Shown here piece after piece: positions 27,424 through 47,057 of a stretch of DNA of 64,000 nucleotides. The position numbers were made by a program, and so were the translations under genes. Below the pieces are notes generated by a model. That model ran no database searches. It was not told the DNA's origin and was given only the letters and a program-made list of their open reading frames with translations. This DNA is from an uncultured Candidatus Saccharibacteria bacterium. GTDB lineage: Bacteria; Patescibacteriota; Minisyncoccia; Phycocordibacterales; EsbW-18. Every line of letters begins with the position of its first letter. Position 1 is the first letter of the stretch. The stretch covers positions 84,604 through 148,603 of the forward strand of contig CAZFMQ010000001.1 in the NCBI GenBank assembly GCA_964520295.1, written 5' to 3'.

Positions 27424-28824
27424 ATGGAGAAGTTTTACGTCACCACACCGATATATTACGTCAATGACAAGCCCCATCTCGGGCATGCGTATTCCACGTT
27501 GATGGCGGATGTGTTTGCGCGGTACTGGCGTGGGCGTTTGGGCGCCGATAATGTATTTTTTCTTACCGGCACCGATGAGCACGGACAGAAGATTGCCGAA
27601 GCAGCAGAAAAAGCAGGGAAGCAACCACAGGAATTTGTAGACGAGGTATCGCAACAATTTAAAGATGCATGGAGCACGCTCAATATCTCGCACGATTATT
27701 TTTTCCGTACGACTGATGCACAGCATAAAAAAATTGTGCAGGATATTTTACAGGCGCTTTATGATCGAGGACTCATTTATAAAGATATCTACCGTGGTCT
27801 GTACTGTGTAGGGTGCGAACGCTATTTGCAAAGTGACGATATCGTTGATGGTCATTGCCCACTGCATCCAAACGGTACGCTTGAAGATAGGGAAGAAGAA
27901 AATTACTTTTTGCGTCTCACACAACTTGCACCGCACGTTTTGGAAGCGCTTGAACGTGACGAGTATCGTGTGCTTCCCGTAGAAAAAAAGAATGAGATTG
28001 TATCTAAAGTGCGCGGAGGCATCAAAGATGTATCTATCTCTCGTGCGGGCGTGTCGTGGGGTATTCCTATTCCGTGGGATACACAGCATACCGTGTACGT
28101 GTGGATTGATGCACTTTTCAATTACTTCACTGCAACGCGTATTGTGCCGGGCAAAGAGCAATTCTGGCCTGCTGACATCCACATTCTTGCAAAAGACATT
28201 TTATGGTTCCATGCATTTATTTGGGAGGCGTTGCTCATGGCTTCAGAATTGCCACTGCCGAAGGTGGTGTTTGCACACGGCTTTTTCACCATTGATGGAC
28301 AAAAGATGAGCAAATCTCTTGGTAATGCGGTAGATCCAAAAACGCTTGTAGAAAAGTACGGTGTTGACGGTGCGCGCTACTTACTCTTGTCGGCGTTTCC
28401 GTTCGGTAATGATGGTGATATTTCACTGTCGCGTTTTGATGAGAAGTTCAACGCGGATTTGGCAAATGGTATTGGTAATCTCGTATCGCGCGTTGCAACG
28501 TTATGCGAGAAGGCACAACTGACGGGCTTGCCCGAACCTGAAGTAGACACGGTGTCATCAGATGCATTTGATCGCTTTCAACCCGATGAAGAACTTGCGC
28601 GCATTTGGAATGACATCAGAACGTTGGATAAAAAAATAAATGATGATGCACCGTGGAAGTTGGAAGGTGCGCAACTCAAAACGGTCATTGCTGTGTATGC
28701 AAAAGCATTGTTGCGCATTGGGGTGGCGTTGAAGCCATTCCTTCCAGAGACAGGGGATCGTGTCGTGGAGATTTTCACAAAGCCCGCGGTGACAAAGCCA
28801 CACCCACTTTTTTCACGAGTGTAA
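27424..28824 (+). CDS. metG: Methionyl-tRNA synthetase, short form without the C-terminal tRNA-binding (Trbp111) domain
   Basis: HIGH motif (PHLGHAYS), FFLTGTDEHGQKI, Zn-knuckle CVGCERY...CPLH, and KMSKS. Confidence 0.95.
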   Translation: MEKFYVTTPIYYVNDKPHLGHAYSTLMADVFARYWRGRLGADNVFFLTGTDEHGQKIAEAAEKAGKQPQEFVDEVSQQFKDAWSTLNISHDYFFRTTDAQHKKIVQDILQALYDRGLIYKDIYRGLYCVGCERYLQSDDIVDGHCPLHPNGTLEDREEENYFLRLTQLAPHVLEALERDEYRVLPVEKKNEIVSKVRGGIKDVSISRAGVSWGIPIPWDTQHTVYVWIDALFNYFTATRIVPGKEQFWPADIHILAKDILWFHAFIWEALLMASELPLPKVVFAHGFFTIDGQKMSKSLGNAVDPKTLVEKYGVDGARYLLLSAFPFGNDGDISLSRFDEKFNADLANGIGNLVSRVATLCEKAQLTGLPEPEVDTVSSDAFDRFQPDEELARIWNDIRTLDKKINDDAPWKLEGAQLKTVIAVYAKALLRIGVALKPFLPETGDRVVEIFTKPAVTKPHPLFSRV

Positions 28825-37852: not shown

Positions 37853-39481
37853 ATGGCAAGTAAAAAAATCTTATTTGATACAGAAGCACGTGAAGCACTG
37901 AAGCGAGGCATTGATGCCGTTGGTAATGCCGTGCGCGTTACACTCGGTCCACGTGGACGCAATGCAGTACTTGAAAAATCTTATGGTGCACCGACTATTA
38001 CCAATGACGGTGTGTCTATCGCTAAAGAAATAGAATTACCTGATCGTTTTGAAAACATGGGTGCAGAGATTGTGAAGGAAGTTGCTACAAAAACAAACGA
38101 TGTGGCGGGTGATGGTACGACAACGGCGACCGTGCTCGTGCAAGCGCTCGTGCATGAAGGTGTTCGTCACGCCACGCTCGGTGTCAACGCGATGGCCTTG
38201 CGTACGGGTATGGAACAGGCGCGTGAAGATGCCGTTGCCGCATTGAAGGCACTCGCAAAGCCGATAAAAGGTTCTGAAGAAATCAAGCAGGTTGCTACTA
38301 TTTCTGCAGAATCAGAAGAACTCGGCACGATTATTGCAGAAACTATTGAAAAAGTGGGGAAGGACGGCGTAGTAACTGTTGAAGAATCACAAACACTCGG
38401 TATTGATTCAGAGGTTGTTGAGGGTTTGGAGTTTGATAAGGGCTATGTGTCGGCGTATCTCGTGACAAATAGCGAGCGCATGGAGGCGGAATATCGCGAC
38501 GTGCCGGTATTGGTAACGGATAAAAAGATTTCGGTGGTGAAAGATATTCTTCCACTGTTGGAGGGGTTAGCACAGAGTGGCACAAAAGAGCTCGTTATTA
38601 TTGCTGACGATGTTGATGGTGAAGCGTTGACGACATTTGTATTGAACAAATTGCGTGGTGGGTTCAATGTACTTGCAATCAAGGCGCCAGGGTACGGCGA
38701 TCGCAAAAAAGAAATGTTAGCTGACATTGCCATTACGGTTGGTGCACAAGTTGTGTCAGATGAGACGGGTACCAAGCTTGAGAATGCAACGGTGGAGATG
38801 CTTGGACGTGCACGGCGTGTGGTATCTACAAAAGACAAGACCGTCATTGTTGGTGGTAAGGGTAAAAAGGGAGACATTGATGCGCGCGTTGCACAGCTTC
38901 GTTCTCAACTCGCAAAGACAGATGCAAAGTATGACAAAGAAAAACTTACGGAGCGTATTGGCAAACTGACGGGTGGTGTTGCGGTTATTCGCGTGGGCGC
39001 TGCGACAGAGACGGAAATGAAGTATCTCAAACTCAAAATTGAGGATGCGGTCAATGCAACGAAGGCGGCTATTGAAGAGGGTATTGTGCCGGGCGGTGGG
39101 AGTGCATTGGCGAAAGTTTCCAAAAAATTGGAAGCAAAAAAGCTCGGCACAGATGCAGTGTCAGTAGGATACGGCATCGTGATTCGTGCATTGCATGCAC
39201 CACTGCGTCAAATTGCGGTGAACGCTGGCAAAGAAGATGGTCTGGTTATTGTGGATAGGGTGAAGAATGGAGAGAAGCATTCTGGATACGATGCCGGTCG
39301 CGATGAGCTTATTGAGGATATGCTCGGCGCAGGTATTGTTGATCCGGTGAAGGTAACGCGCACTGCGTTGCAAAATGCGGTCTCTGCGGCGGCAATGCTC
39401 ATTACTACTGAAGTAGCCGTTGCCGAAGAACCAAAAGAAGAAAAAGACGTGCCGCACGAACACGGGCAAGGCGGATACTAG
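37853..39481 (+). CDS. groEL: Chaperonin GroEL
   Basis: 542 aa. [30 protein letters not shown], and GGG-M-like C-terminus. Confidence 0.97.
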
Positions 39482-42649: not shown

Positions 42650-43938
42650 ATGGAAACAACAGCGCCAGAGAAGTTGAAATACGTTCTGTATGCTCGAAAA
42701 AGTACCGAGAACGACGAACGACAGGCACTCTCGATTGATTCGCAAGTAAAGGAAATGTTACAGATTGCCGAGCGAGAAAGTCTTGAAATAGCGGATATAC
42801 GAAGAGAGGCGCATTCCGCAAAAGATTCAGGACAGCGACCAGTCTTCAAAGAACTTCTTAGCGACATTAGGCAAGAGAAGTTCAACGCGATTCTCACTTG
42901 GGCACCAGATCGTCTTTCGAGAAATGCAGGAGATCTGGGTCGATCGTAGACCTTATGGACGAGAAGAAATTGATATCCATTCGCACTTATGGACAGACCT
43001 TCTCCAACTCCCCGAACGAAAAGTTCCTCCTCATGATTCTCTGTTCTCAAGCGAAACTAGAGAACGATAATCGAGGCATCAATGTAAAACGAGGTCTACG
43101 CGCGCGGTGTGAGCTAGGACTATGGACGACTACGCCGCCAACAGGCTACCTCAAAGAAAAGCGGCTCGACAGGAAGAACGAATGCTATCCAGATCCAGAC
43201 AGAGAAGCCGTGATACGGCAGATATTTGAGAAAGTGGCGTACGAAAAATGGTCAGGACGCAAACTCTATCACTGGCTCACGTTCGAGCTGAACTTTAGAA
43301 CTGCCGCAGGAAAGAAACATTTAAGTCTTGGAAATATCTACCGCATACTTGAGAACACTTTTTACTACGGAGCATTTGAGTATCCGCGAGACAGCGGCAT
43401 CTGGTATCAAGGCAAGCACAAACCGATTATCACTAAGGAACTTTTTGATTTAGTCCAAGAGCAGATAAAGAACTCTCAGCTCGTCCGCAAGGAAAATATC
43501 GAGTTTGCCTTCACGAAGATTATGAAGTGCGGACTATGTGGCTCTGGTGTATCGGCAACCGAAAAGTTTAAGAAGCAGAAGAATGGACCATCGAAACGGC
43601 ATGTCTATTATGGTTGTACCAAAGCGAGAGACAAGAATTGCAAATGCGGGTATATCAACGAAACGGAGCTGATCGAGCAACTGCAAGATCTTACCGATAA
43701 GCTGGACCTCAAGAAAACGCCAATGCAGAACAAAATCAAAATGGAGATCAGGAGATTCAAGAAGTTCCAGGGAATGGTCACCGGAAAGAGCGACAGCATC
43801 GATGTCGATGATGTGGATATTCAGAACTACGCAAGATTTCTACTCAAAGAGGGTGATGATCAGGAGAAACGAGATTTGCTTGGTTGTTTAAAAGGAGAAA
43901 TATTATTAAGTAATAAGCTCATTTCATTAAAGCTTTAA
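42650..43938 (+). pseudogene. Large serine recombinase: resolvase catalytic domain, recombinase domain and zinc ribbon, interrupted by a 1-nt frameshift at about 42940-42950
   Basis: ORF 42650..42949 has catalytic YARKSTE and ends ...LSRNAGDLGRS*. ORF 42898..43938 continues IVDLMDEKK... in another frame with CGLCGS...YYGC...CKCG. The join needs one extra nucleotide in GGTCGATCGTAGAC. Confidence 0.75.
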
Positions 43939-44019
43939 TCGTAAAATTGACCGTAAGTGCCTACAGGTATATACTTTCTTTATAAAGCTATGAATGTGAA
44001 TAGTAAGTCGCAAGACTGA

Positions 44020-44202
44020 ACCAACCCAGGAGCTGCCTGCGATGAGCAGAGACGGAAATCCCAACCGTAAAATAGGGTGGCTGTATTTACAGCTGACAAG
44101 GGTTGTAATAGTGATATTGCAACCAAAGCAAGGTGGTACCACGAGTGATCCTCGTCCTTGCAGAGCCTATTCTTTTAGGTTTTGCAAAGACGGGGATTTT
44201 TC
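44020..44202 (+). promoter_or_regulatory. T-box riboswitch leader (proline specifier CCC) with a terminator, upstream of csaA-like and proS
   Basis: Stem I GA/K-turn motif GCGATGAGCAGAGA (44038-44052). Specifier loop ...GAAATCCCAA (CCC at 44060-62). T-box sequence AAAGCAAGGTGGTACCACGAG (44124-44145). Antiterminator A1 GCAAGG/CCTTGC flanks the bulge TGGTACC and the A2 hairpin ACGAG-TGATC-CTCGT. The terminator CGTCCTTGCA...TGCAAAGACG then TTTTT (44153-44201) shares its 5' strand with the antiterminator. Confidence 0.7.
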
Positions 44203-44226
44203 ATTTTATAATTAACCTACAACATC

Positions 44227-44559
44227 ATGATTACATATGACGATTTTACAAAAGTAGACATTCGCGTCGGGAAAATCACAAAGGTCGAAGATTTTCCCGA
44301 AGCTCGGAAGCCAGCATATAAAATCTGGATTGATTTTGGAGTAGAAATTGGTACTAAAGTTTCTTCTGCCCAAATCACAAAGCATTATTCAAAAGATAAC
44401 CTTATCGGCAAGCAAGTAATTGGTGTTGTGAATTTCCCACCAAAACAAATTGGTCCGTTTAAATCAGAAGTACTGACTCTTGGATTAACAGATGAAAATG
44501 GCGATGTTGTCATTGTTGCACCAACTAAAGAAGTTCCATTAGGCGGAAAACTATTTTAA
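44227..44559 (+). CDS. csaA: tRNA-binding protein (CsaA/Trbp111-like OB-fold, EMAP/MetRS C-terminal-domain type)
   Basis: DFTKVDIRVGKITKVEDFPEARKPAYKIWIDFG...IGKQVIGVVNFPPKQIGPFKSEVLTLG is the canonical Trbp111 domain. Confidence 0.88.
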   Translation: MITYDDFTKVDIRVGKITKVEDFPEARKPAYKIWIDFGVEIGTKVSSAQITKHYSKDNLIGKQVIGVVNFPPKQIGPFKSEVLTLGLTDENGDVVIVAPTKEVPLGGKLF

Positions 44560-44564
44560 CTATT

Positions 44565-45995
44565 ATGAAGTTTACTAAAAGAGACTTGCCAAAAAAATCA
44601 GAAAACCTTTCTGATTGGTATAACAAAGTAATTTTGATGGCTGAGCTTGCTGACTATGGCCCAGCAAAGGGAACGATGATTTACCGTCCCTATGGTTATG
44701 CTATCTGGGAGCTTATACAAAAAGAAATGGATAGTTTGATAAAGGAGCGCGGAGTTGAGAATGGATATTTCCCTCTTTTTATCCCTGAATCTTTGCTCAA
44801 AAAGGAAGAAAGTCATATTGAAGGATTTTCTCCAGAGCTAGCAGTTGTAACAATTGGCGGAGGTGAACAATTGACAGAAAAGTTGGTAGTAAGACCAACC
44901 AGCGAAACAATAATGTATGACGCTTATTCACGCTGGATCCACTCTTGGCGTGATTTACCGTTGATGATTAATCAGTGGAATAATGTCGTTCGATGGGAGA
45001 AAAGAACTTATATGTTTTTGCGCACAACAGAATTCTTATGGCAAGAAGGACATACTGCTCATGCGACACATGATGAAGCATGGGAGATGGTTTTATGGGC
45101 GATGAAAATGTACCAGAAAGTTTATCGTGAACTTTTTGCAATGCCTGGATATGTGGGAAGAAAATCTGAGTCAGAAAAATTTGCAGGCGCTGACAAGACT
45201 TTGACCTTTGAATCACTTATGCCTGAGGGAAAAGCTTTACAAAGCTGTACTTCGCACGATTTAGGTCAAAACTTTTCAAAGACATTCGATATTTCCTTCC
45301 TTAATTCAGAAGGAAAATCAGAGAATGTATGGCAGACGAGTTGGGGTCTATCTACACGCTCAATTGGTGGCCTTATTATGATGCATGGCGATGATGCGGG
45401 ATTGGTCTTGCCGCCTCGTCTAGCTCCAATTCAAGTTGTAGTTTTGCCAGTAAAAGGCGATGAAGAAATCATGGTGATATGTAAAGATATACAAGAGAAA
45501 TTAAAGGCCAAAAGTATTCGGGTAAAAATTGATGACTCAGATAATGAGACAATTGGATTCCGTATTAATAAGTGGGAATTAAAAGGTGTTCCTCTAAGGA
45601 TTGAAGTTGGCATAAAGGAAGTTGAGCAAGGCAAAATCACGGCTGTTCGCAGAGATAATGGAGAAAAGTTTAGCTTCTCAAATAATGAGTTGATCGAAAA
45701 GACTAGCGAACTCTTGCACACGATTCAGAGCGAGTTATATCAAAGAGCAGAAAAGTTTCTGCAGGAAAATACTCGGAACGTAAAAACGTACGAGGAGTTT
45801 AAAGAAACTTTGTCTGAAAAGCGAGGATTTATTTCTGCATTCTGGTGTGAGAATGAGGAATGTGAAAAAAATATAAAAGAAGAAACAAAAGCAACTACTC
45901 GGTGCCAACCAATTGATTCAGAAGAATTGGACGGAAAATGTGTCTATTGTAATAGGCCTGCAAAATACAGCTGGCTCTTTGGCCAGGCTTATTAG
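44565..45995 (+). CDS. proS: Prolyl-tRNA synthetase, archaeal/eukaryotic type (no INS editing domain, C-terminal Zn-binding domain ending in Tyr)
   Basis: Class II motifs, anticodon-binding domain, and a C-terminal CxxC...CxxC...Y (CENEECEKN...CVYCNRPAKYSWLFGQAY). Length 476 aa. AT-rich codon usage. Confidence 0.9.
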   Translation: MKFTKRDLPKKSENLSDWYNKVILMAELADYGPAKGTMIYRPYGYAIWELIQKEMDSLIKERGVENGYFPLFIPESLLKKEESHIEGFSPELAVVTIGGGEQLTEKLVVRPTSETIMYDAYSRWIHSWRDLPLMINQWNNVVRWEKRTYMFLRTTEFLWQEGHTAHATHDEAWEMVLWAMKMYQKVYRELFAMPGYVGRKSESEKFAGADKTLTFESLMPEGKALQSCTSHDLGQNFSKTFDISFLNSEGKSENVWQTSWGLSTRSIGGLIMMHGDDAGLVLPPRLAPIQVVVLPVKGDEEIMVICKDIQEKLKAKSIRVKIDDSDNETIGFRINKWELKGVPLRIEVGIKEVEQGKITAVRRDNGEKFSFSNNELIEKTSELLHTIQSELYQRAEKFLQENTRNVKTYEEFKETLSEKRGFISAFWCENEECEKNIKEETKATTRCQPIDSEELDGKCVYCNRPAKYSWLFGQAY

Positions 45996-46056
45996 CCACC
46001 CAAACTCAAGTGTTACTTGAAGCGAACACGAGCTTCCTCGTGCTAGCTGTTAAATG

Positions 46057-46143
46057 CGGAGACAAGAGGATTCGAACCTCTGGTCGGATTTCTCCGACAC
46101 CACCTTTCCAAGGTGGCGCATTCGACCGCTCTGCCATGTCTCC
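46057..46143 (-). tRNA. tRNA-Ser (anticodon GGA), type II with long variable arm
   Basis: Reverse-complement fold. Acceptor GGAGACA/TGTCTCC, 3-bp D-stem GCA/TGC, anticodon stem CCACC/GGTGG with loop TTGGAAA, variable arm GTCGG...CCGAC, T-arm AGAGG-TTCGAAT-CCTCT, discriminator G. Confidence 0.85.
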
Positions 46144-46166
46144 GTGTGTAGTGTTATACCACACCA

Positions 46167-47057
46167 CTATTCTTTCAAAAAATTCTTTGAAAGTGTTTGG
46201 ATTTTTGAAAACGCGGTAGGTGGGAACCAGTGTATGGATTGATTGCGTTTGAACCACGTCATTTGCCGTTTAGCATAGCGATAAATCTCTGTTTCAAGTT
46301 TTGCGAGCATTGCTTCGCGAGACAGTTTTCCTTGCAGATGTTGTGCGATATATCTGTACTCAAGCCCTAATTCCTCAAGACGTTTCCACGACACACCGTG
46401 CGCATGCAAGCGACGCACTTCAGCGACCATGCCGTGCTTCATACGTTCATGCAGGCGCGTATGTATTTTTTGTTTCAGTTTCGCCATGGGAAGTGTAATA
46501 CCAATATAGAGTGCATCATACGGGGATTGTGTGTGTTGTTTCGGCACTGCACCAAGTGCGTTTATGATTTCTAATGCACGTATGAGGCGGCGTTTGTTGT
46601 GTTTGTCTATGTCATGCGCGCGTTGCGGGTCTTTTTTCTGCAACATGACGTACAACTCTTCAGCGCTTTTTTTCTCAAGACGTGCGCGTAGTATCTTGTT
46701 CGGTGGCACATTTGGCAGTACGACACCTGCAACCAATGCATCAATGTAGTGTCCTGTGCCACCAACAATAATTGGTGTTTTGCCCCCGTTGCGTATTTTT
46801 GTAATTGCTTTCTGCGCATCACGAGTAAAGTGTTGCGCGGTGTAGGTGCGCTTTGGTGACGCGACATCAAGAAGATAGTGGGGTATACCCTGCATCTCTC
46901 GTTTTGTAATTTTGCCACTGCCGATGTTCAATCCTTTGTATACCTGACGAGAGTCGCCAGAGATAATTGCACCACCAAGGGTGCGCGCGAGCCGAATGGC
47001 GAGCGCACTTTTTCCAACTGCAGTTGGCCCGACAATGACAATGAGTTTTGGTTTCAT
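46167..47057 (-). CDS. miaA: tRNA dimethylallyltransferase MiaA
   Basis: P-loop GPTAVGKS, DSRQVYKGLNIGSGK, and conserved MiaA core. Start at the internal ATG (MKPKLIVIVGPT). Confidence 0.92.
   Translation of the reverse strand: MKPKLIVIVGPTAVGKSALAIRLARTLGGAIISGDSRQVYKGLNIGSGKITKREMQGIPHYLLDVASPKRTYTAQHFTRDAQKAITKIRNGGKTPIIVGGTGHYIDALVAGVVLPNVPPNKILRARLEKKSAEELYVMLQKKDPQRAHDIDKHNKRRLIRALEIINALGAVPKQHTQSPYDALYIGITLPMAKLKQKIHTRLHERMKHGMVAEVRRLHAHGVSWKRLEELGLEYRYIAQHLQGKLSREAMLAKLETEIYRYAKRQMTWFKRNQSIHWFPPTAFSKIQTLSKNFLKE

What the first reader, a model, noticed from the sequence alone, without database searches (positions are those of the whole stretch)
44020..44202. Canonical T-box riboswitch with proline (CCC) specifier upstream of csaA-proS
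All hallmark elements are present in the right order. Stem-I GA/K-turn motif GCGATGAGCAGAGA. A specifier-loop CCC followed by a purine. The T-box sequence AAAGCAAGGTGGTACCACGAG (consensus AANNNGGGUGGNACCGCG). The antiterminator folds as A1 GCAAGG/CCTTGC, a 7-nt bulge UGGUACC and the A2 hairpin ACGAG-UGAUC-CUCGU. It competes with the terminator CGTCCTTGCA...TGCAAAGACG plus U5. The bulge UGGU would pair with an ACCA end carrying discriminator A73, as in bacterial tRNA-Pro. T-box leaders have rarely, if ever, been described in CPR-like genomes.
Basis: seen in the sequence. Interest (0 to 1): 0.7.

Follow-up and report, generated by a model that had tools for sequence, protein, structure and literature searches.

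The report
Minimal proline T-box in CPR bacterium
A tRNA-sensing "T-box" RNA switch for proline sits in front of the csaA-proS operon of an ultra-small (CPR/Parcubacteria) bacterium, but it is a stripped-down version that lacks the arm normally thought essential for switches that work by stopping transcription.

Summary
Rfam's T-box model matches 43981-44162 end to end (66.4 bits, E=3.5e-12 over the whole window), below the curated cut-off of 93 because Stem I is ultrashort: 53 model positions are replaced by a GCAA tetraloop. The antiterminator (-12.6 kcal/mol), the UGGUACC bulge and the overlapping terminator (-36.6 kcal/mol plus U-tract) are confirmed. A sigma70-like promoter sits just upstream. 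Fourteen related leaders, all upstream of csaA(-proS), support the fold: 95% of cells paired versus 72% in shuffles, and 35 of 44 pairs change on both sides. Each carries CCN plus a purine at the specifier position. GroEL places the host in Parcubacteria (CPR). I found no paper describing T-boxes in CPR, and reviews say transcriptional T-boxes need a long Stem I. Most likely it is a tRNA-Pro(UGG)-responsive transcription attenuator and a new architectural variant of a known family.

The parts
43947..43975 (+). Sigma70-like promoter: TTGACC (43947-52), 17-nt spacer, TATACT (43970-75). The predicted transcription start is about 43982-43984, just 5' of Stem I.
   Evidence: 10 of 12 matches, the best site in 43600-46200. 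No promoter-like site lies between the leader and csaA. Similar TTGAC(N)-17-TAnnnT sites sit at the same place in L057, L062, L138, L110, L100 and L072 (read by eye).
43987..44033 (+). Ultrashort Stem I. K-turn: GC-UAUGAA (43987-94) with GGA-GC (44029-33). Lower helix: UGUG/CCCA (43995-98/44025-28, one U.C mismatch). Specifier internal loop: AAUAGUA (43999-44005) opposite GAA-CCA-A (44018-24). It is capped by AGUC-GCAA-GACU (44006-17). There is no distal platform.
   Evidence: Rfam alignment: 53 model positions are replaced by 4 nt. RNAalifold recovers both helices without my annotation. All 4 lower-helix pairs change on both sides in the family.
44021..44024 (+). Specifier codon CCA (proline, read by tRNA-Pro anticodon UGG) followed by the conserved purine A44024.
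   Evidence: Rfam register. CCA is the only Pro codon in the window's specifier loop. CCN plus a purine sits at the 3' end of the Stem I loop in all 14 related leaders and in L093.
44036..44051 (+).
   Evidence: All 5 pairs change on both sides in the family. The purine-rich pentaloop (GAUGA, GAUAA, GAAUA or UAAGA) recurs across members.
44053..44077 (+). Stem IIA: CGG [AAAUCCCAA] CCG, followed by an F-box-like CCGUAA.
   Evidence: All 3 IIA stem pairs change on both sides. The pseudoknot has only weak support: the summed loop-tail complementarity was reached by 94 of 5000 shuffles.
44079..44094 (+). Extra hairpin GGCUGU-AUUU-ACAGCU between IIA/B and Stem III. It is an insertion relative to the Rfam model.
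   Evidence: G-C, G-U and A-U exchanges occur among the window, L057 and L062.
44101..44124 (+). Stem III: a 10-bp helix with a GUGA tetraloop. It is flanked by ...CAAG on the 5' side and AAA on the 3' side.
   Evidence: All 10 pairs change on both sides among the members that have a Stem III.
44128..44161 (+). Antiterminator (discriminator core): A1 GCAAGG/CCUUGC, 7-nt T-box bulge UGGUACC (44134-40), A2 ACGAG/CUCGU with loop UGAUC.
   Evidence: It folds alone as predicted at -12.6 kcal/mol. The bulge is UGGUACC in 13 of 14 family members and UGGUAAC in one. In the family, 4 of 6 A1 pairs and 4 of 5 A2 pairs change on both sides.
44147..44207 (+). Intrinsic terminator. The hairpin is 44147-44198; its 5' strand reuses the 3' halves of A2 and A1. 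The tract UUUUUCAUUUU (44197-44207) follows and ends 20 nt before the csaA ATG.
   Evidence: -36.6 kcal/mol, z=-8.15, 0 of 200 shuffles as stable. Equivalent hairpin plus U-tract in L057, L062, L071, L098, L100, L110, L113, L129 and L138.
44227..44559 (+). csaA: a 110-aa CsaA-family protein with the tRNA_bind fold. It is the first regulated gene.
   Evidence: Pfam PF01588, E=4.8e-15. Best PDB matches are CsaA proteins 2q2i and 2nzh (E=1e-42 to 1e-36), with more distant matches to the MetRS C-terminal domain and Trbp111.
44565..45995 (+). proS: a 476-aa archaeal/eukaryote-type prolyl-tRNA synthetase. It starts 5 nt after csaA, so the two form an operon.
   Evidence: Pfam tRNA-synt_2b, HGTP_anticodon and ProRS-C_1. 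Relatives at 66-85% identity are found across CPR.

Best explanation
The 43981-44207 leader is a functional, proline-specific T-box riboswitch of a reduced architecture. It controls the csaA-proS operon by transcription attenuation.

Proposed mechanism:
1. Transcription starts at about 43982 from the TTGACC-17-TATACT promoter.
2. The nascent RNA forms an ultrashort Stem I. This has a K-turn, a 4-bp helix and an S-turn-type specifier loop presenting CCA-A, capped by 4 bp and a GCAA loop. A small Stem II hairpin, Stem IIA (and probably the IIA/B pseudoknot), an extra hairpin and Stem III follow.
3. Uncharged tRNA-Pro(UGG) pairs its anticodon with CCA (44021-23) and its 3' ACCA end with UGGU (44134-37) in the 7-nt bulge.
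4. That binding stabilises the weak antiterminator (-12.6 kcal/mol) against the much stronger terminator (-36.6 kcal/mol), so RNA polymerase reads through into csaA and proS.
5. Charged Pro-tRNA cannot do this, so transcription stops in the U-tract at about 44200-44207.

Shown here computationally: the motifs, the two alternative folds and their energies, covariation, conservation of the Pro codon, the promoter and the gene context.

Inferred from the established T-box mechanism: tRNA binding, charge discrimination and the readthrough itself. Also inferred is that Stem II/IIA-B and the G+C-rich CCA:UGG duplex compensate for the missing tRNA-elbow contact.
For: - **Rfam match:** RF00230 matches the full length of the model, 66.4 bits, E=2.4e-14 and 3.5e-12. 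It is the only T-box hit in the window.
- **Alternative folds:** the antiterminator and terminator fold as predicted.
- **Independent structure prediction:** RNAalifold recovers Stem I, Stem II, the extra hairpin, Stem III, A1 and A2 without my annotation.
- **Family:** model R1 finds 13 further leaders, all upstream of csaA.
- **Covariation:** on their alignment 95.0% of cells pair versus 72.1% in shuffles (0 of 500 shuffles reach it) and 35-45% when partners are slid. 35 of 44 pairs change on both sides.
- **Specifier and bulge:** every member has CCN plus a purine at the specifier position, and the bulge is UGGUACC in 13 and UGGUAAC in one.
- **Cognate tRNA:** a CPR tRNA-Pro(UGG) in L141 has A73, complementary to the U of UGGU.
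- **Gene context:** the leader tracks csaA-proS. It is present in 7 of 17 csaA loci with proS downstream and 1 of 54 without (Fisher p=1e-4). That one exception, L138, turned out to have a bacterial-type proS.
- **Promoter:** a conserved promoter sits directly upstream and none lies downstream.
- **Expression platform:** terminator hairpins plus U-tracts recur in the family.
- **Canonical relatives:** standard long-Stem-I Pro T-boxes precede the homologous proS in Clostridia.
Against: - The score is below Rfam's gathering cut-off (66.4 versus 93).
- The window's Stem I lower helix has a U.C mismatch (UGUG/CCCA). L057 and L062 have a perfect UGGG/CCCA.
- The A2 closing pair is A-U, not the canonical G.U wobble described as the steric sensor of the aminoacyl group (PMC7583486). 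In the family it is A-U in 11 members and G-C in 3.
- The specifier ends in A, against the 'C rule' (PMC7583486).
- Stem II is only a short hairpin without a recognisable internal-loop S-turn.
- Pseudoknot support is weak.
- The review states that the Stem I distal platform is essential in transcriptional T-boxes (PMC7583486, section 6.2), so kinetic competence without it is unproven.
- No tRNA-Pro gene lies in the window, so the cognate anticodon in this genome is unknown.
- The A5 alignment was fitted to the model structure, which inflates pairing percentages.
- There are no experimental data.
Confidence: 0.8

Rival explanations
1. This would be a canonical T-box whose Stem I K-turn is GCGAUGAGCAGAGA (44039-52) and whose specifier is CCC (44060-62), read by tRNA-Pro(GGG).
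For: CCC is a Pro codon followed by a purine and obeys the 'C rule'. GAUGAG superficially resembles a GA motif (sequence).
Against: - The Rfam alignment assigns these bases to Stem II and Stem IIA, and places a proper K-turn and specifier loop upstream at 43987-44033.
- In 11 more distant family members the IIA loop is not CCC (for example AGUCCACU, AAACUCA, UGGAA, AGACUGC, AUUGC). The Stem I loop always carries CCN plus a purine.
- The lower Stem I helix covaries at 4 of 4 pairs.
Confidence: 0.03
2. It acts at the level of translation, like the actinobacterial class II (short Stem I) ileS T-boxes. On this view the 3' hairpin sequesters the csaA ribosome-binding site rather than terminating transcription.
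For: Truncated Stem I is the hallmark of translational T-boxes (PMC7583486; TBDB, PMC7778990). In relatives L110, L129 and L138 the 3' strand of the hairpin contains GGAGG about 7-9 nt from the AUG, so dual control exists in the family.
Against: In the window the hairpin is followed immediately by UUUUUCAUUUU, a classic intrinsic terminator. It ends 29 nt before the AUG. No SD-like GGAGG lies in or after it; the only G-run (GGGG, 44192-95) is more than 30 nt from the start codon. L098, L100 and L113 have a separate SD downstream of the terminator.
Confidence: 0.07
3. It is a decaying, non-functional remnant of a T-box that arrived by horizontal transfer with the low-GC csaA-proS block. On this view the operon is expressed constitutively or is simply attenuated.
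For: - The block has 39% GC versus 47-49% around it, and lies next to a frameshifted serine recombinase.
- The T-box is patchy. Close ProRS relatives at 81-83% identity lack it.
- Several canonical features are missing or altered: the distal Stem I, the G.U wobble, the 'C rule' and one helix mismatch.
Against: - Leaders at about 88% identity (L057, L062) differ mainly by structure-preserving changes.
- Family-wide covariation, an invariant bulge and a conserved Pro codon indicate purifying selection on the fold.
- With a -36.6 kcal/mol terminator and no antitermination, an essential single-copy-type proS would be nearly silenced, which makes a dead switch unlikely (inference).
Confidence: 0.07

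Closest known systems
Class I transcriptional T-box leaders (Rfam RF00230), for example B. subtilis glyQS and tyrS, and the canonical proS T-boxes of Clostridia seen here in L017-L046
   Same: - K-turn and specifier loop with AGUA/GAA S-turn.
- Codon followed by a purine.
- Stem II, Stem IIA and Stem III.
- UGGNACC bulge and A1/A2 antiterminator.
- An overlapping intrinsic terminator with a U-tract.
- Location upstream of an aminoacyl-tRNA synthetase gene matching the specifier.
   Different: - The whole distal half of Stem I is missing (AG bulge, distal loop and tRNA-elbow platform; 53 model positions replaced by 4 nt).
- Stem II is reduced to a 5-bp hairpin.
- The specifier is CCA rather than NNC.
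- The A2 closing pair is A-U instead of G.U.
- There is an extra hairpin before Stem III.
- The host is CPR rather than Firmicutes.
- The score is below the Rfam gathering cut-off.
Class II 'ultrashort/short Stem I' translational ileS T-boxes of Actinobacteria (M. tuberculosis, N. farcinica; Sherwood et al. 2015 as cited in PMC7583486)
   Same: Stem I is truncated just above the specifier loop, so there is no elbow contact. The K-turn, a Stem II domain and a IIA/B element are retained, and in the actinobacterial case these compensate for the missing platform.
   Different: - The expression platform is an intrinsic terminator, not an SD sequestrator.
- The amino acid is proline, not isoleucine.
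- The host phylum is CPR.
- Stem II here is much shorter and has no evident internal S-turn.
- Some relatives (L071, L110, L113, L138, L008, L129) go further and present the codon in a 7-nt terminal loop.

I could not read the primary paper (not held), so this comparison rests on the review.
Glycine glyQS T-boxes (which naturally lack the Stem II domain)
   Same: They are a precedent for natural module loss in T-boxes. The review attributes it to a G+C-rich codon-anticodon duplex (GGC:GCC) that needs less lateral stabilisation (PMC7583486). Pro codons CCN are similarly G+C-rich.
   Different: glyQS keeps the long Stem I and loses Stem II. The present leader does the opposite.

Membership tests
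T-box leader (RF00230) | Significant match to the family covariance model, reaching the curated gathering score | tested here: inconclusive
   66.4 bits, E=3.5e-12 over the window, full-length alignment, but below the gathering score of 93. Bona fide long-Stem-I Clostridia proS T-boxes also fall below it at 48-79 bits.
T-box leader (RF00230) | K-turn (GA motif) at the base of Stem I | tested here: met
   GC-UAUGAA (43987-94) with GGA-GC (44029-33), aligned to the model's K-turn. NNUGAN...GGA-GC recurs in most family members.
T-box leader (RF00230) | Specifier loop with a codon matching the regulated gene, followed by a purine | tested here: met
   AAUAGUA opposite GAA-CCA-A. The downstream gene is proS. 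CCN plus a purine is conserved in 15 leaders.
T-box leader (RF00230) | Distal Stem I platform (AG bulge plus distal loop) that stacks on the tRNA elbow | tested here: not met
   53 model positions are replaced by the 4-nt GCAA loop. It is absent in all the CPR relatives but present in the Clostridia proS leaders. This feature defines class I, not the family as a whole, because actinobacterial members also lack it (PMC7583486).
T-box leader (RF00230) | Stem II domain with S-turn, and the Stem IIA/B pseudoknot (F-box) | tested here: inconclusive
   The Stem II and IIA helices are present and covary (5 of 5 and 3 of 3 pairs), and an F-box-like CCGUAA is present. There is no clear internal-loop S-turn. 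The CCC/GGG pseudoknot is only weakly supported.
T-box leader (RF00230) | Stem III with flanking purines, adjacent to the antiterminator | tested here: met
   A 10-bp Stem III (44101-24) with flanks ...CAAG and AAA. All 10 pairs change on both sides. An exact RRRxG register could not be assigned.
T-box leader (RF00230) | T-box sequence forming the A1/A2 antiterminator with a 7-nt UGGNACC bulge | tested here: met
   44128-44161 folds as predicted. The bulge is UGGUACC in 13 of 14 family members.
T-box leader (RF00230) | G.U wobble closing helix A2 (steric sensor of the aminoacyl group) | tested here: not met
   The window has A44141-U44155. In the family it is A-U in 11 and G-C in 3, never G.U.
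T-box leader (RF00230) | Mutually exclusive, more stable terminator (or sequestrator) overlapping the 3' half of the antiterminator | tested here: met
   Hairpin 44147-44198 at -36.6 versus -12.6 kcal/mol, followed by a U-tract.
T-box leader (RF00230) | Fourth bulge base complementary to the discriminator base of the cognate tRNA | tested here: met
   UGGU pairs with A73. The tRNA-Pro(UGG) of a related CPR contig (L141) has A73. The window genome's own tRNA-Pro was not available.
T-box leader (RF00230) | Uncharged-tRNA-dependent antitermination | not testable with these tools
   This needs in vitro transcription or in vivo reporters.
Class II translational T-box (Actinobacteria ileS type) | Truncated Stem I lacking the elbow-binding platform | tested here: met
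Class II translational T-box (Actinobacteria ileS type) | Expression platform that sequesters the Shine-Dalgarno sequence (no terminator U-tract) | tested here: not met
   The hairpin is followed by UUUUUCAUUUU, and there is no SD in or near it in the window.

The most novel reading that the evidence does not exclude
The CPR leaders are a distinct, protein-assisted class of T-box. Because Stem I has lost its tRNA-elbow platform, the CsaA protein that is always encoded as the first gene takes over. CsaA shares the fold of Trbp111 and the MetRS C-terminal domain, and from my own recollection Trbp111 binds the outer corner of tRNA. On this reading CsaA binds the exposed elbow of the T-box-bound tRNA-Pro (or delivers it). 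This would speed capture or stabilise the complex and create a feedback loop on csaA-proS expression.
Probability: 0.08. Interest if true: 0.85.

Novelty: new variant of a known kind. Interest (0 to 1): 0.6.

Why it matters
1. **Wider distribution.** It extends T-box regulation to the Candidate Phyla Radiation. Surveys list Firmicutes, Actinobacteria, Chloroflexi, Deinococcus-Thermus and a few Proteobacteria (PMC2494555; TBDB preprint). Four full-text searches found no paper linking T-boxes to CPR, Patescibacteria or Parcubacteria. It suggests that these ultra-small, nutrient-dependent bacteria monitor tRNA charging directly.

2. **A challenge to a current view.** It pairs an ultrashort Stem I with an intrinsic terminator. 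The field's current view is that the elbow-binding platform is essential for transcriptional T-boxes, because tRNA must be captured before RNA polymerase reaches the terminator (PMC7583486, section 6.2). These leaders are a natural test of that idea. Some relatives reduce Stem I to a K-turn plus a 7-nt codon-bearing loop and also lack Stem III (about 120 nt in total), which makes them attractive minimal parts for engineering.

3. **Missed by annotation.** They score below Rfam's gathering cut-off, so standard annotation misses them.

4. **A clue to CsaA.** The invariable T-box-csaA-proS order, with either type of ProRS, points to a tRNA-Pro or ProRS-related role for CsaA, whose function is debated.

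Tried and rejected
- **Rfam at the gathering threshold:** no T-box. The permissive mode was needed.
- **Simple terminator scan:** it did not flag the T-box terminator because of its internal C.A mismatch. RNAfold did.
- **Plain MAFFT alignment of the 11 diverse leaders:** unusable around Stem I and Stem III. I replaced it with a seed plus covariance model.
- **Pseudoknot (CCC/GGG) test against shuffled loops:** only weakly positive, so it is not claimed as shown.
- **Search for more window-type leaders through the closest ProRS homologues (P0004, P0005, P0006, P0008, P0009):** none has csaA or a T-box. Only L057/L058 and L062 share the window's exact architecture.
- **The window's own contig:** Taxonomy was inferred from GroEL.
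- **Papers not held:** Sherwood 2015, Vitreschak 2008 and Henkin 2014. I therefore cannot exclude an earlier report of short-Stem-I transcriptional T-boxes.
- **Readings considered and rejected:** an ACC (Thr) reading of GAACCAA, because it would use the last A of the S-turn GAA and does not fit proS. Also the 71-aa minus-strand ORF 43927-44142, which has no support as a real gene.
Full report
**What is in the sequence.** A whole-window Rfam scan at gathering thresholds finds only nine tRNAs and no T-box. In E-value mode, RF00230 (T-box) matches 43981-44162 on the + strand over the entire model (positions 1-219) at 66.4 bits. The E-value is 2.4e-14 for the local search and 3.5e-12 for the whole 64-kb window, where it is the only T-box hit. 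The curated gathering score in this Rfam release is 93 bits. The shortfall comes mainly from one place: 53 consensus positions of distal Stem I are replaced by four bases.

**Corrected anatomy.** The Rfam alignment and my structure-annotated seed give the following layout.
- **Promoter:** TTGACC-17-TATACT at 43947-43975. It scores 10 of 12, the best site in the region, and no promoter-like site lies between the leader and csaA.
- **K-turn:** GC-UAUGAA (43987-94) with GGA-GC (44029-33).
- **Stem I lower helix:** UGUG/CCCA (43995-98/44025-28), with one U.C mismatch.
- **Specifier loop:** AAUAGUA on the 5' side, and GAA-CCA-A (44018-24) on the 3' side.
- **Cap of Stem I:** AGUC-GCAA-GACU (44006-17).
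- **Stem II:** the hairpin C-CUGC[GAUGA]GCAG-A-G (44036-51).
- **Stem IIA:** CGG[AAAUCCCAA]CCG (44053-67), followed by UAAAAUAGGG.
- **Extra hairpin:** 44079-94.
- **Stem III:** 44101-24, 10 bp with a GUGA loop.
- **Antiterminator:** A1 at 44128-33/44156-61, the UGGUACC bulge at 44134-40, and A2 at 44141-45/44151-55.
- **Terminator:** the hairpin 44147-44198, followed by UUUUUCAUUUU up to 44207.
- **Start codon:** the csaA ATG is at 44227.

The register GAA-codon-purine-helix is the same as in the textbook glyQS leader (my own knowledge of that sequence).

**The two folds.** On its own, 44127-44163 folds exactly into A1, a 7-nt bulge and A2 at -12.6 kcal/mol. The segment 44143-44212 folds into a long hairpin at -36.6 kcal/mol (z=-8.15; none of 200 shuffles is as stable) that consumes the 3' strands of A2 and A1 and ends at the U-tract. 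The whole leader's minimum-energy fold is the terminated form. Termination is therefore the default state, and the antiterminator needs outside stabilisation, as in every T-box. The simple terminator scan missed this hairpin because of its internal C.A mismatch.

**Genes and host.**
- The 110-aa ORF at 44227-44559 has the tRNA_bind domain. Its best PDB matches are CsaA proteins (E down to 2.5e-42), with more distant matches to the MetRS C-terminal domain and Trbp111.
- The ORF at 44565-45995 is an archaeal-type ProRS (tRNA-synt_2b, HGTP_anticodon, ProRS-C_1). It starts 5 nt after csaA.
- ProRS relatives at 66-85% identity come from many CPR lineages.
- The csaA-proS block is a 39% GC patch in a 47-49% GC window, and lies next to a split serine recombinase. 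I therefore checked an independent marker. GroEL (37853-39481) has Candidatus Campbellbacteria (82%), Wolfebacteria, Taylorbacteria and Paceibacterota as its closest named relatives. The host is a Parcubacteria-type CPR bacterium.

**Related leaders.**
- Of 13 CPR-like proS loci from species-representative genomes, Rfam at E<=0.01 found a T-box only in L012.
- The contig of the closest ProRS (85% identity; L057, and partially L058) has csaA-proS and a leader 88% identical to the window's.
- A metagenome scan with a CsaA alignment gave 80 csaA loci.
- A covariance model built from the window, L057 and L062 with my structure (R1) found leaders in L062, L071, L072, L098, L100, L110, L113, L129 and L138, plus L012, L008 (Blackburnbacteria) and L019. 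A looser motif search added L093.
- All of them lie directly upstream of csaA.
- By tblastn, proS follows csaA in 17 of 71 csaA loci with downstream sequence. The T-box was present in 7 of those 17 and in 1 of the other 54 (Fisher p=1e-4). The single exception, L138, in fact encodes a bacterial-type ProRS further downstream.
- L110, L113 and L129 also pair the module with a divergent ProRS (23-27% identity to the window's). The module T-box-csaA-proS therefore exists with both ProRS types.
- Caveat: other bacterial-type proS genes may have escaped my archaeal-type query.
- ProRS relatives at 81-83% identity (L059-61, L142-145) have neither csaA nor a T-box, so the leader is patchy.

**Covariation.** On the model-guided alignment of 14 leaders (A5), 95.0% of pair cells are standard pairs. 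That compares with 72.1 +/- 1.2% in column shuffles (0 of 500 reach the observed value) and 35-45% when partners are slid by 1-3 columns. 35 of 44 pairs show changes on both sides.

| Helix | Pairs changing on both sides |
|---|---|
| Stem I lower helix | 4 of 4 |
| Stem II | 5 of 5 |
| Stem IIA | 3 of 3 |
| Extra hairpin | 5 of 5 |
| Stem III | 10 of 10 |
| A1 | 4 of 6 |
| A2 | 4 of 5 |

The alignment was fitted to the model's structure, which favours pairing. However, RNAalifold run on the three collinear sequences without my annotation recovers both Stem I helices, the Stem II inner helix, the extra hairpin, Stem III, A1 and A2. The upper Stem I stem exists only in the three window-type sequences and does not covary. 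Complementarity between the IIA loop and the downstream tail (CCC/GGG in the window; CUC/GAG, UGG/CCA, ACUGC/GCAGU, UUGC/GCAA and GGC/GCC elsewhere) exceeds shuffles only modestly: a sum of 33 versus 27.8 +/- 2.2, reached by 94 of 5000 shuffles. I treat the pseudoknot as likely but not shown.

**The specifier.** Read directly from the sequences, the Stem I interiors are as follows.

| Leader | 3' end of the Stem I loop | Closing helix strand |
|---|---|---|
| window | GAA-CCA-A | CCCA |
| L057, L062 | GAAC-CCA-A | CCCA |
| L071 | [UUCCCAA] | |
| L110 | [AUUCCCA] | |
| L113, L138, L008, L093 | [UUUCCCG] | |
| L129 | [UUUCCUG] | |
| L019 | [UUCCUA] | |
| L012 | [UACCCAG] | |
| L098 | [AGAUCCGAC] | |
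| L100 | [CCACCGAA] | |
| L072 | ...GGUUCCCG | CCAAA |

Every leader has a proline codon CCN followed by a purine at the 3' end of the loop. In the window, CCA is the only Pro codon in the loop. The third codon position is A, C, U or G in different leaders, so the 'C rule' of canonical T-boxes (PMC7583486) does not hold here. The fourth bulge base is U in all 14, and the tRNA-Pro(UGG) gene found in L141 has A73. The window itself has no tRNA-Pro gene.

**Expression platform in the family.** A hairpin overlapping the 3' half of the antiterminator and ending in a U-tract is found in these leaders.

| Leader | Hairpin energy (kcal/mol) |
|---|---|
| window | -36.4 |
| L057 | -37.4 |
| L062 | -33.0 |
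| L071 | -33.4 |
| L098 | about -16 |
| L100 | -32.6 |
| L110 | -20.1 |
| L113 | -28.5 |
| L129 | about -14 |
| L138 | -16.6 |

In L110, L129 and L138 the 3' strand also holds the SD, so control may be dual there. The window has no SD in or near the hairpin, so attenuation of transcription is the best reading. L072 and L093 lack a clear terminator.

**Comparison with what is known.**
- The same kind of ProRS in Clostridia (about 50% identity) is preceded by canonical T-boxes. These have a long Stem I (AGAGA bulge, GGCUGAAAG-type distal loop), mostly CCC-purine specifiers, ACCGCG and terminators. They too score below the gathering cut-off, at 48-79 bits.
[quoted passage not shown] - The same review says intermediate or 'ultrashort' Stem I's belong to translational T-boxes of Actinobacteria, where the Stem II domain compensates.
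- TBDB likewise treats a truncated Stem I as putative translational class II (PMC7778990).
- The window's leader combines a class II-like Stem I with a class I terminator. It also has an A-U pair in place of the G.U wobble closing A2, and a much-reduced Stem II.
- Known phyla with T-boxes are Firmicutes, Actinobacteria, Chloroflexi, Deinococcus-Thermus and a few Proteobacteria (PMC2494555; TBDB preprint).
- Searches for T-box together with Candidate Phyla Radiation, Patescibacteria or Parcubacteria returned no paper. A Patescibacteria perspective mentions riboswitches only as future tools.
- I could not read Sherwood 2015, Vitreschak 2008 or Henkin 2014, so an earlier description of similar variants cannot be excluded.

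**Verdict.** It is wrong in calling the element canonical and in placing Stem I and the specifier. The most likely mechanism is tRNA-Pro(UGG)-dependent antitermination by a minimal T-box (confidence about 0.8). It remains unexplained how the leader captures tRNA co-transcriptionally without the elbow contact. Possible contributors, none tested here, are the G+C-rich CCA:UGG duplex, the extra hairpin and Stem III acting as a delay, slow polymerases, or help from the co-encoded CsaA. I rate it a new variant of a known kind, with interest 0.6.

Noticed in passing
window 42650-43938 (+), with 43000-46000 and 46056-46143 (-): A large serine recombinase is split into two overlapping frames: a resolvase-like N-terminal part at 42650-42949, and Recombinase plus Zn-ribbon domains at 42898-43938. 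It lies directly upstream of the T-box promoter. The csaA-proS block has 39% GC versus 47-49% around it, and a tRNA-Ser(GGA) gene follows it. This may be a small acquired island.
   Followed up: partly
window 27424-28824 (+): MetRS is only 466 aa and ends before the C-terminal tRNA-binding domain (it matches profile positions 4-475 of 648). Meanwhile a free-standing protein of that same fold (CsaA) is encoded in the proS operon.
   Followed up: no
L141 1406-1480: In this csaA-proS locus a tRNA-Pro(UGG) gene with A73 sits 20 nt upstream of csaA, in the place where other loci have the T-box.
   Followed up: partly
L071, L110, L113, L138, L008, L093, L129, L019, L012 (Stem I regions): In these relatives Stem I is reduced to a K-turn, a 4-5 bp helix and a 6-7 nt terminal loop carrying the Pro codon (for example UUUCCCG). 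L072, L100, L110, L113 and L138 also lack Stem III, giving leaders of about 120-190 nt. These are more minimal than the 'ultrashort' type described in the review.
   Followed up: partly
L110, L113, L129, L138 (downstream of csaA): The same T-box-csaA module is followed by a bacterial-type ProRS rather than the archaeal-type enzyme of the window. csaA, not a particular proS lineage, is the constant partner of the leader.
   Followed up: partly
L093 about 1360-1500; L072 866-926: These T-box leaders have intact Stem I and bulge, but no clear terminator hairpin with a U-tract before csaA. They may be degenerate or may work differently.
   Followed up: no
L012 1830-1950: A 40-codon ORF and about 340 nt lie between the T-box and csaA in this Saccharibacteria-labelled MAG.
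   Followed up: no
L017-L046 (Clostridia proS loci): Canonical long-Stem-I proS T-boxes score only 48-79 bits against RF00230, whose gathering score here is 93. Gathering-threshold annotation would miss them too. L035 and L036 also carry cobalamin and TPP riboswitches 1.2-1.6 kb upstream.
   Followed up: no
A5 alignment, columns 363/421 (window 44141/44155): The pair closing helix A2 is A-U (11 leaders) or G-C (3), never the G.U wobble described as the steric sensor of the aminoacyl group in canonical T-boxes.
   Followed up: partly
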